Assembly (NCBI GenBank): GCA_951406725.2 | Contig: OX597823.1 | Coordinates: 59,830,001 to 59,894,000 of the forward strand | From: Octopus vulgaris | Taxonomy: Eukaryota | Length of the DNA: 64,000 bases | Direction: 5' to 3' | Shown here: positions 2,164 through 63,130 of the stretch, piece after piece | Layout: each line of letters starts with the position of its first letter | Numbering within the stretch: the stretch's first letter is position 1 | Translations under genes and position numbers: made by a program | Notes under the pieces: model-generated | Database searches by the model: none | What the model was told of the DNA's origin: nothing | What the model saw: only the letters and a program-made list of their open reading frames with translations

Positions 2164-3352
2164 CAGGTAATGTCTGCTTCTTGTTGAAGTTATATATTTG
2201 TTCTCTTTGCTTGTTCCATATTCATCTCAGACAGGAAGCTTGTTTATATTGAAAGTAGTGAAGGTAACCAAAAGGAGAAATTGCACTAGACATCAACTAA
2301 GGTCACTTTCACGTGATGCCTAGTTGAATTTCCCACTCTATGTTATCTGCTCTGTCACTGGAGCCACTATGAGTCCACAGATAGGTGTGTTGGTGCCACA
2401 TTGAATCACTTTCTGAGAGGACACTATCGAATATTGTACTAAGTAGCTTGCTTATGGACATCACTGGTTCTGGGTTTAGTCCCACTGCGTGGCATCTATG
2501 GGCAAGTGTCTTCTACTATAACCTCGGGCTGACCAAAGCCTTGTGAGTGGATTTGATAGATGGAAACTGAAAGAAGCCCGTCGTATATATGTATATATAT
2601 ATATATGTGTGTGTATGTGTGTGTATGTGTTTGTCCCCCTAGCATTGCTTGACAACCGATGCTGGTGTGTTTATGTTACCATCACTTAGAGGCTCGGCAA
2701 AAAGAGACCGATAGAATAGGTACTGGGCTTACAAAGAAGAAGTCCCAGGGTCGATTTGCTCGACTAAAGGTAGTGCTCCTGCATGGCTGAAGTCAAATGA
2801 CTGAAACAAGTAAAAGAGTAGGTAGGATATTTTGTTATTGAACAAACTAGGCTTTGTTCAATAATGAAAGGTGTACTACTTCATAATGGTTTCAAATTTT
2901 GGCATAAAGTGAATTAAATCAACCCCATTGCTCAGCCAGTACTTATTTTATCAACCCTGAAAAGATGAAAGGCAAAGTCGGCCCCAGTAACATTTAAAGC
3001 CAGAACAAAAAGACAGCCGAAATGCTGCAAAGCCTTTTACCTGGAATGTTAATGATTCTGCCAGCTTACTGATTTAGTACAATATTCCATAGTGTCCTCT
3101 CAGAAAGTGATTCAATGTGGCACCAACACACCTATCTGTGGACTCATAGTGGCTCCAGTGACAGAGCAGATAACATAGAGTGGGAAATTCAACTAGGCAT
3201 CACGTGAAAGTGACCTTAGTTGATGTCTAGTGCAATTTCTCCTTTTGGTTACCTTCACTACTTTCAATATAAACAAGCTTCCTGTCTGAGATGAATATGG
3301 AACAAGCAAAGAGAACAAATATATAACTTCAACAAGAAGCAGACATTACCTG
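2164..3352. repeat. 279-bp inverted repeat (2164-2442 / 3074-3352) with 631-bp spacer
   Basis: Arms are reverse complements; one mismatch seen (2428/3088). Confidence 0.95.
2440..2820 (+). mobile_element. tRNA-derived SINE, family A (octopus OK/OR-like; internal TA/TG microsatellite, 'actgaaacaagtaaaagag' tail)
   Basis: Other copies at 4525-4935(-), 5895-6120(-), 6760-6990(-), 12410-12580(-), 20760-21310(-), 24925-25287(-), 30845-31250(-), 41405-41760(+), 43115-43540(-), 43855-44320(-), 47100-47280(+) and 51829-52240(+). Full copies have A/B-box-like heads. Confidence 0.85.

Positions 3353-8490: not shown

Positions 8491-8495
<5 letters not shown>
8309..8495 (+). mobile_element. Short PLE-type pLTR element with minimal hammerhead (8365-8399)
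   Basis: gttt CCGACGA a gagc tcc gctc GAAAC GTT aaac (U4 to C in this copy). Homologous to 46185-46370; flanked by microsatellites. Confidence 0.7.
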
Positions 8496-8542
<47 letters not shown>

Positions 8543-8756
8543 AATAAATCTCTGAGCGAGATATAAACAGTAATTGCTCTATAACATAAGGGGGATCAGC
8601 CATCTGAATGTGGCTAGGGTCAGGGCGGGGTGGTGGGGGTGTTACTGATGCATTTAGCCCCAGGCGAACATCAACGTCACCAGAAGGGCTGACACCATCT
8701 CGGTGTCCTTGCCAGCCTGCAAAGGGAGATCAGCCTCCCCGAAGATACGGATACTA

Positions 8757-8799
8757 CACACGGACCGGTTTCGAGGTTATTGCCTCTTGTCAACGTATG
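8757..8799 (-). ncRNA. Type I hammerhead ribozyme, U3-A8 core variant
   Basis: Minus strand: catacg TTGACAA gagg caataa cctc GAAAC cg GTC cgtgtg. Confidence 0.8.
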
Positions 8800-9199
8800 G
8801 TAAGCACCGCTCTTCGTTGAGGGACTTCCCCTACAGGCTGGATATATAGGGATTTTCACAGTAACCACAGTCACTGGCGTAGAAAATCCGTTCGAAAACA
8901 ATAATAAATCTCTGAGCGAGATATAAACAGTAACTGCTCTATAACATAAGGGGGATCAGCCATCTGAATGTGGCTAGGGTCAGGGCGGGGTGGTGGGGGT
9001 GTTACTGATGCATTTAGCCCCAGGCGAACATCAACGTCACCAGAAGGGCTGACACCATCTCGGTGTCCTTGCCAGCCTGCAAAGGGAGATCAGCCTCCCC
9101 GACGATAACGGATTTTCTACGCCAGTGGCTGTGGTTACTGTGAAAATCCCTATATATCCAGCCTGTAGGGGAAGTCCCTCAACGAAGAGCGGTGCTTAC

Positions 9200-9242
9200 C
9201 ATACGTTGACAAGAGGCAATAACCTCGAAACCGGTCCGTGTG
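9200..9242 (+). ncRNA. Type I hammerhead ribozyme, U3-A8 core variant (inverted copy)
   Basis: catacg TTGACAA gagg caataa cctc GAAAC cg GTC cgtgtg; predicted cleavage after C9236. Confidence 0.8.
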
Positions 9243-9419
9243 TAGTATCCGTATCTTCGGGGAGGCTGATCTCCCTTTGCAGGCTGGCAAGGACACCGAG
9301 ATGGTGTCAGCCCTTCTGGTGACGTTGATGTTCGCCTGGGGCTAAATGCATCAGTAACACCCCCACCACCCCGCCCTGACCCTAGCCACATTCAGATGGC
9401 TGATCCCCCTTATGTTATA

Positions 9420-9457
<38 letters not shown>

Positions 9458-60585: not shown

Positions 60586-62099
60586 CATATATATGTATAC
60601 TTATATATTTATACATACACACACATACTCATATATATGTGTGTATATATAGCATAACACAGACACATATGTGACATTTATGTCTAATGCGTATGCATAT
60701 ACATATGTTTATAGACAGACTGACAGGCAGGCAGGCAAGCAAGTAGACGGACATAAAACAGACGGACAGAAAAACAGACAGAGAGATAGCTAGATGGAGA
60801 GATATGCATATATTTTGTGGTGTTACGTACTTACATCTATGACCTAAAATGTTAGATTGTACTCCATGCAAGTATCACTCAGCTATAGAAAAAAAAACTG
60901 AAGACATAATTTATTATATGCACAGCATTTATAGTATTCTTAAGACAATTGGCTGAGAAACTTATAGTTAAAAGACCAATGTGGTGGGTGGATATCTGGA
61001 AGATGAAGCATGATGAAGTCTTATTAGAAACAGATTGGATGTAGAGAAACAGATGGTATTAGCACACTTACAGTGGTTATCATAGCAAAATACATTTGAT
61101 GAATGAGATATGCAAAGTGATCAAACTTGGAACTTTGTAGGTGTAAAGTGAACATCTTAAGCACAGGATCGTGTTACATACATATATAAACATGTGAACA
61201 TGTGTTTACGTATGTATATATATATGTTTGTATGTAAGTTTTATGTACATTGTAATTAGGTTTCATTTCTTGACGTCTTGTCAATAGAGAAAGAGCTGGT
61301 TTCTTACCTAGGTCTAAGACTCCTTTTACAGGATAGCTTTGCATGCTTGTATTCATGTGTGCGAGTATTTGGAATCAGTGCATATGCAGAGCTGTATGTT
61401 TTGTTTTATGTATGTATTCTCGTACACATAGTTACATAACTCGACATGTGCATGTGTACATCTACGTTAAATTTTGAGGCTTGTATCTTCAATCATCTAA
61501 ACAGCTTTTGCATTTCTGGTTTTGAGAACTATGATTTCTCAAGATATGCATGTATGCAGACATGTATTTATATATGCATGTATGTATGTACGGACGGACA
61601 GACAGATGGATGGATACATGGATGCATGTATTTATGTATGCTTCTATGTAAATAAATCTTATGTTACATTTTGTGTGTGTGTTTAGAAAAAACGAAGTTG
61701 TTAGAATTTTGGATAATAATTTTGTGCTTTCACCTTTTCCTCAGAGATTCGTTATGAATAATTTGTTTACAAAAAATTCATACCTTCTATATACATGTGA
61801 AGTAGTTGAAAAATCTGGGAATAGAATGTATTTGTTATTTTGAATCTATATGTGTGTAAATATATGTGTGTAAGTATATGTGTGTGTGTGTATGTATTTG
61901 TGTGTAAGTATATGTATGTGGCAAATATCTGGAGGCTTAGTTAGAGAAATAAAGGAAACAAGAAAAAGTTAGAAAGGAAGGGAGGAAAGAAAGAAAGAAA
62001 AAAGATAAAAGAAAGAAGACGAAAGAAAGACATCAGGATCTTTTCCTGAAATGGTTGAAATTGCATTGCACTTTTCTTCATGCCTGGTACTAGAGGGGA

Positions 62100-63130
62100 A
62101 TACCTTTAAGTTTGATGGTAAAACATGTCAATAAATAAAAGGCACAGCTATGGGGACTAAATCTGCACCCTCATATGCTAACCTGGTTGTGGGGTTTTTA
62201 AGAGGAAAAACTATATGAGGAAATAAAGAAAACTTTCAAGCAATATGCCATTGAAAAGTGAAAATGCTTCTTCAATAATAACAAATATACTTAACAAATA
62301 AACAGATACACACCAGTATTTGAACTTCTACTCTTGTCATCCTTCACACATTAAATGGAACATTCTATACAGTATGGCATGACATATTTGTGCAGTAGTA
62401 CTTGATCCAAAACTGCATTTAAATTCAACTCAATAAAATCAAAGGCTTCCTAAAAAATAGAGTTATCTCTGACATTTAATGATGAAATTATATAGGTGAT
62501 GAAACTGGACATCATACAACTGAGGACACCTTAGAAAAACATTAAAGAAAATACTATCCTATTTATCAATACAAATAATCAAAGTGTAACCAACATATTT
62601 GTCGCTGTAAAGTAAACCTACCAAAATTCTTAGAAAGCCCTTAACTGAAAAGTCTGGTTGTTGAAAACCTTATATGAAACAGTAAATGTCAACCAAAAAT
62701 TTGCAAGGGCAAAATTTACACCAGAGGATTATTCAGAATTCTCCAGGAAGGACTGCAGAAATAATAGATGTAAAATATGTAACAGAACCAACAACAATTT
62801 TAAAAATTTGGACACTGGTTCCCATATAAAATTTACAATTGGTTTTTCCAAGTAAATGTAGATATGAACTGCAAGACACAGAATCTCATCTACTGCATAA
62901 CGTATCCCAAATGCAAAGAAAATTATTTTGGTGAAATCAACAATTCCTGTTGCCAACATGCAACAAAATACAGACAATACATCAGACAAAACGATTCCAC
63001 TAAGTGAGCATCTGGAAGTATGTGGAAACAGTAGATTTAAGATCTTTCTCTCCTACAAATGCTCAAGGGATGACCCAAAGTACTGGAAGGCAATACAACT
63101 ACATACCAAAAAGATTTTTTTCTAAATTAC
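62100..63130 (+). pseudogene. Decayed Penelope-like element ORF: RT + GIY-YIG endonuclease
   Basis: FKFDGKTCQ*IKGTAMGTKSAPSYANLVVGF (RT); K*TDTHQYLNFYSCHPSHIKWNILYS (thumb); CRNNRCKIC; MNCKTQNLIYCITYPKCKENYFGE (GIY-YIG); IPLSEHLEVCG. Several stops and frameshifts. Confidence 0.9.

What the first reader, a model, noticed from the sequence alone, without database searches (positions are those of the whole stretch)
9200..9242. Hammerhead with a U3-A8 covariation (UUGACAA core) that standard CUGANGA searches miss
Seen: catacg-UUGACAA-gagg(caauaa)ccuc-GAAAC-cg-GUC-cgugug in both copies (also 8757-8799, minus). Known: C3-G8 is a tertiary Watson-Crick pair, and U3-A8 is a tolerated natural variant. 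The palindromic stem III (ACCGGU) is typical of PLE HHRs that act as dimers. Inference: the double change preserves the pair, which argues for selection on catalysis rather than decay.
Basis: partly seen in the sequence, partly recalled or inferred. Interest (0 to 1): 0.8.

Follow-up and report, generated by a model that had tools for sequence, protein, structure and literature searches.

The report
Retrozyme hammerhead with swapped core pair
A short repeated DNA element in an animal genome carries a hammerhead-shaped RNA, predicted to cut itself, in which the usual C-G core pair is replaced by U-A; that swap is already published, but sister copies here carry C-G or a mismatched C-A, and the mismatched form still spread, so self-cutting by a copy's own core is likely helpful but not required for jumping.

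Summary
Observation confirmed: a type I hammerhead with a U3-A8 core lies at 9200-9242 (+) and 8757-8799 (-). It sits in a 360-nt tandem repeat with Penelope-type insertion marks: 5' truncation, inversion, a 41-nt optional tail and (TA)n targets. That makes it a non-LTR retrozyme. U3-A8 is published as a natural variant (PMC3088659; about 1,300 hits in PMC4209133). It is common in this genome (1,398 matches in Penelope 3' ends), and this scan noted it before on other DNA (e1-9568374).

Fixation (88 of 89 copies) shows only common descent. Better evidence comes from sister subfamilies. Of 368 matches, up to 234 are U3-A8 and 103 have G8 (all 100 listed are C3-G8). Another 31 are C3·A8, and 27 of those form one young clade at 19 loci. 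So the pair is usually kept, but a mismatch lineage still spread.

The window's two copies lie on opposite strands, come from one insertion and cannot dimerise in cis. Cleavage, expression and the mobilising partner are not shown. Verdict: new member of a known kind, modest interest.

The parts
9200..9242 (+). Type I hammerhead: stem I, core UUGACAA (U3-A8), 4-bp stem II with loop CAAUAA, GAA, palindromic stem III ACCGGU, predicted cut after C9236
9184..9259 (+). Extended stem I rod with the internal loop next to the 6-bp helix (UUACC...GUA, as in the Rfam HH9 consensus); predicted to contact loop II
   Evidence: the contact itself is inferred
8757..8799 (-). Second, identical hammerhead copy; predicted cut after the base at 8763
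8539..8898 (-). Full 360-nt repeat unit (monomer positions 1-360), the 3' end of the minus arm
8539..8579 (-). 41-nt optional tail (monomer 320-360), present on this arm and absent from the plus arm
   Evidence: tail described in PMC8557442 and PMC11167929
8899..9113 (-). 5'-truncated tandem unit (monomer 147-360) without a hammerhead
9107..9419 (+). Inverted unit (monomer 7-319) that holds the hammerhead of the finding
9151..9157 (+). TATA-like TATATAT about 50 nt before the core; an AT-rich stretch lies at the same place in the sister family; promoter role untested
8495..8538 (.). (TA)n run at the left end, likely the target site
9420..9453 (.). (TA)n run at the right end, likely the target site

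Best explanation
This is a type I hammerhead with a U3-A8 core pair inside a 360-nt tandem, non-coding repeat (a non-LTR retrozyme) that is likely copied into (TA)n runs by the proteins of a Penelope-like retrotransposon and is predicted to cut after C9236 when two copies pair through the palindrome ACCGGU. Shown: the motif, the repeat unit, the insertion anatomy, and three 3/8 states in sister subfamilies. Inferred steps: (1) source loci with tandem units are transcribed. (2) Two hammerheads swap strands through stem III and cut, which may give circles. (3) A Penelope-type RT/GIY-YIG protein nicks AT-rich DNA and starts copying at one of two sites 41 nt apart, giving truncated, tandem and inverted copies. 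(4) Source lineages mostly keep a Watson-Crick 3-8 pair (U-A or C-G), but cutting by a copy's own core is not strictly needed, since a C3·A8 lineage spread. U3-A8 here is inherited from the family's source, not a change at this locus. This locus is likely a dead-end copy: it has one ribozyme per strand and a long inverted repeat.
For: Motif, fold and HH9 match. 218 genomic copies within 3 mismatches of the 40-nt motif; the 40 candidates scored of 1,974 gave near-full-length matches at 95-100%. Among 87 arrays from 120 loci, 43 are inverted. Of 129 3' ends, 47 lie at monomer 319 and 47 at 359-360, and 88 run into a (TA)-type repeat. This matches the published Penelope tail and inversion pattern (PMC8557442, PMC11167929). 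On 35 distinct hammerheads of this and the sister family, 95.4% of cells pair, 36 cells change on both sides (shuffles 13.1, 0 of 500 reach it), and slid controls give 23-56%. In the sister family the palindrome itself covaries: of 100 rows listed (of 399), 26 ACUGCAGU, 19 ACUCGAGU and 16 ACCCGGGU, counted by hand. 3/8 states. Active Penelope-type elements (RT + GIY-YIG, many 781-codon open frames) exist in this genome.
Against: No cleavage was tested. In one mutational scan all single and double changes at the 3/8 positions except the G-C swap gave low activity (PMC9901934, passage), so U-A depends on context. No autonomous partner sharing the monomer or its tail was found among 36 GIY-YIG loci; Penelope fragments beside family copies were separate insertions where I looked. 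0 of 135 5' ends fall at monomer 135-139, so there is no pile-up at the cut site; about 2 would be expected from an even spread, so this only says that cut linear RNAs are not the main template. Only 16 of 87 arrays hold two same-strand ribozymes. The covariation cells reflect few independent events among related copies, and loci were picked for an intact motif.
Confidence: 0.75

Rival explanations
1. The ribozyme is a passenger: U3-A8 and C3·A8 forms cut poorly or not at all, the element spreads on uncut tandem RNA, and the paired states mostly reflect a few source elements and old constraint.
For: A C3·A8 clade spread to 19 loci, one with three tandem copies. In vitro, hammerhead mutants did not change insertion by an Anolis Penelope element, and no RNA-seq ends were seen at the cut site (PMC11167929 section 3). 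No pile-up of 5' ends at the cut site. The 3/8 changes are only a few events on the tree.
Against: Stems I and II, the GAAA strand, GUC and the palindrome are kept across subfamilies 4-18% apart and in the more distant sister family, with changes on both sides of pairs. No U3·G8 lineage appears: 0 of 100 G8 rows listed and 1 of 100 in the sister family.
Confidence: 0.15
2. The unit is the terminal repeat (pLTR) of an autonomous Penelope-like element not yet found, and the window holds only short 5'-truncated copies of it.
For: The insertion anatomy is fully Penelope-like. A 2026 preprint derives animal retrozymes from Penelope pLTRs (10.64898/2026.07.22.740005, abstract and passages). Only 150 of 6,136 GIY-YIG candidates were scored and 36 loci were checked.
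Against: Upstream of a unit lies another unit, up to five hammerheads in a row on one strand (listing). A protein search of 145 loci of the two families found Penelope fragments near 8 records, and the two I read base by base (L182, L183) were cut off from the units by (TA)n runs and unrelated DNA. The active element I read carries a different, minimal hammerhead.
Confidence: 0.08
3. The motif is a decayed or chance look-alike, with U3 and A8 as two unrelated decay mutations at this locus.
For: C7-G8 is a CpG, so G8-to-A decay is easy; scattered C3·A8 copies occur in the older sister family (9 of 100 listed).
Against: 88 of 89 exact-flank copies share U3-A8; it also marks the oldest subfamilies; chance expectation is 0.
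Confidence: 0.02

Closest known systems
Metazoan non-LTR retrozymes with canonical type I hammerheads (Cervera and de la Pena 2020, PMC7229834; I read passages and section 14)
   Same: Tandem non-coding unit of 350-390 nt as in mussel; type I hammerhead with 6-bp helix I, 4-bp helix II and a short palindromic helix III; highly self-paired monomer (z -4.3); lives beside autonomous Penelope elements.
   Different: U3-A8 core (a find for 'U3-A8', 'C3U' and 'covariation' gave 0 hits in that paper's main text; supplements not read). Arrays are short, dispersed and often inverted, with a Penelope tail. Circular RNA is not shown here.
U3-A8 hammerheads of Schistosoma mansoni Cercyon Penelope elements (Cervera and de la Pena 2014, PMC4209133; I read parts 1-2 of 4) and natural U3-A8 variants (Perreault et al. 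2011, PMC3088659; section 8)
   Same: Same covariation at the tertiary pair; same link to Penelope elements; palindromic stem III read as a sign of dimers.
   Different: Those are minimal hammerheads in pLTRs (long helix II, short helix I). This one is canonical, with an extended stem I, and lies in a non-coding tandem unit; C3-G8 and C3·A8 sisters of the same family are at hand.
Poseidon element PAc of Anolis (Frangieh et al. 2024, PMC11167929; I read the abstract and section 3) and Penelope insertion anatomy (Craig et al. 2021, PMC8557442; passages)
   Same: Two 3' ends a tail apart, AT-rich targets, tandem and inverted 5'-truncated copies; in PAc, insertion did not need hammerhead cleavage in vitro.
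   Different: PAc encodes its own protein and its hammerhead overlaps the start codon; this unit encodes nothing and its partner is unknown.
Rfam RF02275 Hammerhead_HH9
   Same: Aligns over all 77 model positions, including UUACC...GUA in stem I and a CAA-rich loop II.
   Different: 26.9 bits against a cut-off of 52; no loop on stem III; U3-A8 in place of C3-G8.

Membership tests
Type I hammerhead ribozyme | Core CUGANGA / GAAA / NUH with a Watson-Crick 3-8 pair | tested here: met
   UUGACAA, GAAA, GUC; U3-A8 is a published paired variant
Type I hammerhead ribozyme | Three helices with stem I open; G10.1-C11.1; A15.1-U16.1 | tested here: met
   stem III is stable only as an intermolecular duplex (-8.3 kcal/mol)
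Type I hammerhead ribozyme | Loop I / loop II tertiary contact | tested here: inconclusive
   The nucleotides match the HH9 consensus; the contact cannot be computed here
Type I hammerhead ribozyme | Self-cleavage after C17 | not testable with these tools
   Needs an in vitro assay
Non-LTR retrozyme | Non-coding tandem unit of about 170-400 nt, each with a type I hammerhead | tested here: met
   358-360-nt unit; no open frame of 150 codons or more at this locus; 16 of 87 arrays hold two or more same-strand ribozymes, but the window's own array does not
Non-LTR retrozyme | Expression as abundant circular RNA | not testable with these tools
   Only assembled contigs of runs were served; they cannot show ends, strand or circles
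Penelope-mobilised element | 5' truncation, inverted 5' copy, optional 30-40-nt tail, AT-rich or microsatellite target | tested here: met
   43 of 87 arrays inverted; 3' ends split 47 / 47 of 129 between two sites 41 nt apart; 88 of 129 run into (TA)n
Penelope-mobilised element | Identified autonomous partner sharing the 3' end | tested here: inconclusive
   None among 36 GIY-YIG loci; the search covered a small part of the candidates
Autonomous Penelope-like element | RT + GIY-YIG reading frame between pLTRs | tested here: not met
   No such frame at the locus
Minimal pLTR hammerhead (min-HHR) | Long helix II, short helix I, extra base before stem II | tested here: not met
   Helix II has 4 bp, helix I has 6 bp plus an extension, no extra base

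The most novel reading that the evidence does not exclude
This family records a full switch of the hammerhead's tertiary pair inside one genome, U3-A8 to C3·A8 to C3-G8. The mismatched step was not a dead copy but a lineage that kept spreading, because its crippled ribozyme is cut in trans by intact sister RNAs that pair with it through the shared ACCGGU palindrome: a ribozyme 'cheater' that lets a catalytic pair cross a fitness valley.
Probability: 0.2. Interest if true: 0.65.

Novelty: new member of a known kind. Interest (0 to 1): 0.33.

Why it matters
The U3-A8 swap itself is known, so the flagged feature is ordinary. Two smaller points have value. First, the family offers three natural states of the 3-8 pair (U-A, C·A, C-G) in backgrounds 4-13% apart, a ready set for asking whether retrozyme spread needs cleavage and whether dimeric hammerheads can rescue each other in trans. 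Second, the 41-nt tail and inversion pattern give insertion-level support to the idea that animal retrozymes are moved by Penelope proteins, which the 2026 preprint argues from distribution and phylogeny. Surveys that require CUGANGA would miss roughly seven in ten matches of this family (103 of 368 have G8).

Tried and rejected
Expression: no RNA holder listed. Contigs of guessed-RNA runs cover parts of the unit but cannot show ends, strand or level; one contig ends 4 nt from the predicted cut, next to a variable position, and I take nothing from it.

Autonomous partner: no DNA match of the monomer to 36 GIY-YIG loci, and the best local score of its 3' 80 nt was within the shuffled range. Six regions with Penelope fragments near copies were fetched; the two read base by base were separate insertions, the other four were only compared by BLAST. 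The high-depth loose end behind the tail led to a second retrozyme-like family, not to a coding element.

Direction of change: the best rooted tree nests the C3 group inside U3-A8 lineages, but the tree with U3-A8 as one clade is not rejected (p-AU 0.18), and the outgroup branch is long. My first test of C3-G8 as one clade (p 0.017) was flawed, because a decayed C3·U8 copy was left outside the group. Redone with that copy inside and one likely mosaic row removed, p is 0.32, and p is 0.44 for C3·A8 as one clade. So stepping stone and CpG-derived offshoot both stand.

Two slips: one search used a misregistered structure string and is replaced; the hand-built monomer energies used a wrong outer helix and are not used.

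'Rfam misses it because of U3-A8': rejected by the C3-G8 control.

Papers not held and not read: Przybilski and Hammann 2007, Lunse et al. 2017, Nelson and Uhlenbeck 2008. Measured rates for U3-A8 and C3·A8 are therefore second-hand. No supplements were read; they may list U3-A8 retrozymes. Paper searches. None showed a paper on a propagated C3·A8 hammerhead lineage, but no search was aimed at that alone.

Full report
Observation. On the plus strand, stem I is 9200-9205 with 9237-9242, the core 9206-9212 reads U3 U4 G5 A6 C7 A8 A9, stem II is 9213-9216 with 9223-9226, then come GAA, the palindrome ACCGGU (9230-9235) and C17 at 9236. The same motif lies at 8757-8799 on the minus strand; shuffles give none. 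The region folds better than 199 of 200 shuffles, and Rfam's HH9 hammerhead aligns end to end at E 2.3e-5, below its cut-off. Rfam gave no hammerhead on larger stretches, nor on 5 of 5 loci with canonical C3-G8 sister copies, so the miss is not due to U3-A8.

The element. The hammerhead lies in a 360-nt unit. The window holds one full unit (8539-8898) and a truncated one (8899-9113) on the minus strand, then an inverted unit (9107-9419), all between (TA)n runs. The genome is 2.8 Gb and holds 218 matches within 3 mismatches of the 40-nt motif. I analysed 87 distinct arrays from 120 fetched loci, which were picked for an intact motif or a near-full match. Of these, 43 are inverted. Of 129 3' ends, 47 lie at monomer position 319 and 47 at 359-360, and 88 run into a (TA)-type repeat. 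This is the published Penelope pattern: 5' truncation, an inverted 5' copy and an optional 30-40-nt tail (PMC8557442, passages), which in Anolis marks two start sites of reverse transcription (PMC11167929, section 3). Unit size, lack of coding and the canonical hammerhead match animal non-LTR retrozymes (PMC7229834, passages and section 14; PMC4209133, parts 1-2). A 2026 preprint derives these from Penelope terminal repeats (10.64898/2026.07.22.740005, part 1 of 5 and passages).

This locus. The two hammerheads face opposite ways and are arms of one insertion; the arms differ at one position over 313 nt. A read-through RNA is predicted to pair each hammerhead with its antisense copy. An RNA starting at the internal TATA-like site is predicted to form stems I and II. 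No strand carries two ribozymes, so this locus cannot form a cis dimer or release a circle. Only 16 of 87 arrays carry two on one strand.

Is U3-A8 fixed, and does that show selection? With flanks held exact, 88 of 89 copies are U3-A8 and one is C3·A8. That shows descent from one source. A looser pattern finds 368 relatives: 101 U3-A8 with another base at 7, 103 with G8, of which all 100 listed are C3-G8, 31 C3·A8, and 133 by subtraction, mostly the window's U3-C7-A8 type. Subfamily majorities differ by 1-18%. For trees I masked positions 3, 7 and 8, removed loop II, and dropped 21 of 126 units that were too truncated. A well-supported branch (100/98) separates C3 from U3 units. Within C3, 23 C3·A8 units form a supported clade (96/89) that is 0.9% from its own majority, against 3.3-3.6% for the oldest U3-A8 subfamilies. 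In one search, 27 matches of this clade lie at 19 loci, one with three tandem copies, and none of the 100 listed G8 rows shares their loop. So this is a lineage that spread, not scattered decay. Both letters at 9206 and at 9211 also appear in contigs of public runs under three organism codes.

Order of events. A second family shares the tail and the fold and is mostly C3-G8: 88 of 100 rows listed of 399, with 9 C3·A8, 1 U3·G8, 2 others and no U3-A8, counted by hand. Rooted on it, the best tree nests the C3 group inside U3-A8 lineages, which would mean a switch to U-A and a later return to C-G (70 rows, at most 7 per subfamily). The alternative is not rejected (p-AU 0.18). With 21 more C3-G8 units (6 dropped as truncated) the base of the C3 group is unresolved. 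Neither C3-G8 nor C3·A8 as one side of a branch is rejected (p 0.32 and 0.44). C3·A8 may thus be a stepping stone or an offshoot made by CpG decay in a source copy; it shares both A8 and the CAA start of loop II with the U3-A8 lineages, and both sites are CpG in most C3-G8 forms.

Evidence for constraint on the fold. On 35 distinct hammerheads from both families, 95.4% of cells pair and 36 cells change on both sides, above all 500 shuffles and all slid controls; the 3-8 pair is C-G 14, U-A 12, other 9, with mismatches over-sampled by my choice of rows. These cells reflect few events. The clearest sign is the sister family's stem III, where three different perfect palindromes make up 61 of 100 listed rows. 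That fits selection for intermolecular pairing. ACCGGU pairs with itself at -8.3 kcal/mol.

What is known about activity. Natural U3-A8 covariation was reported in 2011, citing earlier proof of activity in vitro (PMC3088659, section 8), and about 1,300 U3-A8 hits were reported in Schistosoma. In a full pairwise scan of another hammerhead, only the G-C swap rescued this pair and all other single and double changes had low activity (PMC9901934, passages). That makes C3·A8 likely crippled and leaves U-A dependent on context. In the Anolis element, hammerhead mutants did not alter insertion in vitro. Here 0 of 135 5' ends fall at the cut site, which fits uncut or circular templates.

Partner. The genome has active Penelope-type elements with RT and GIY-YIG domains. 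Their 3' ends carry a different, minimal hammerhead that is also U3-A8 with a palindrome, with 1,398 matches. So U3-A8 is common in this genome. I found no sequence shared with the monomer, and the partner is not identified.

Verdict. A real hammerhead and a new member of a known kind. The flagged swap is published and was noted by this scan on other DNA (e1-9568374). The boldest reading left open is that this lineage is cut in trans by intact sisters; that a strand-swapped dimer takes its core from one RNA and its cut site from the other follows from the dimer model drawn in PMC4209133 and is my inference for mixed pairs. Interest 0.33.

Noticed in passing
L121-L145; window tail 8899-8937: A second, older retrozyme-like family shares the 3' tail and the fold. 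It is mostly C3-G8 and has three different 8-nt stem III palindromes (399 matches).
   Followed up: partly
L176-L181 (for example L177:120-3784): Active Penelope-type element with two reading frames (466 and 765 residues; RT and GIY-YIG in the second, no Pfam match for the first) and a minimal U3-A8 hammerhead near its 3' end.
   Followed up: partly
L183:5136-5165: Another Penelope 3' end with a U3-A8 minimal hammerhead that has the same ACCGGU palindrome as the retrozyme (seen); a candidate for cross-pairing or for the partner family.
   Followed up: no
L182:1711-1891 and 2524-2704: A 181-bp, 98% identical direct duplication flanks one array, unusually long for a target duplication.
   Followed up: no
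L060: One insertion carries C3-G8 on one arm and C3·A8 on the other, with different loop II sequences; likely a mosaic of two templates or later conversion.
   Followed up: partly
monomer positions 80-110 (window about 9180-9210): 23 of 135 5' ends fall here against 2 in positions 40-79, about 25-55 nt after a TATA-like box. This may be a transcription start, a hairpin stall, or my choice of loci with an intact motif.
   Followed up: partly
window 2164-2442 and 3074-3352: A perfect 279-nt inverted repeat around 631 nt that hold other repeats; unexplained.
   Followed up: no
window 62084-62406: Remnant of a Penelope-type reverse transcriptase (tblastn E about 5e-7).
   Followed up: no
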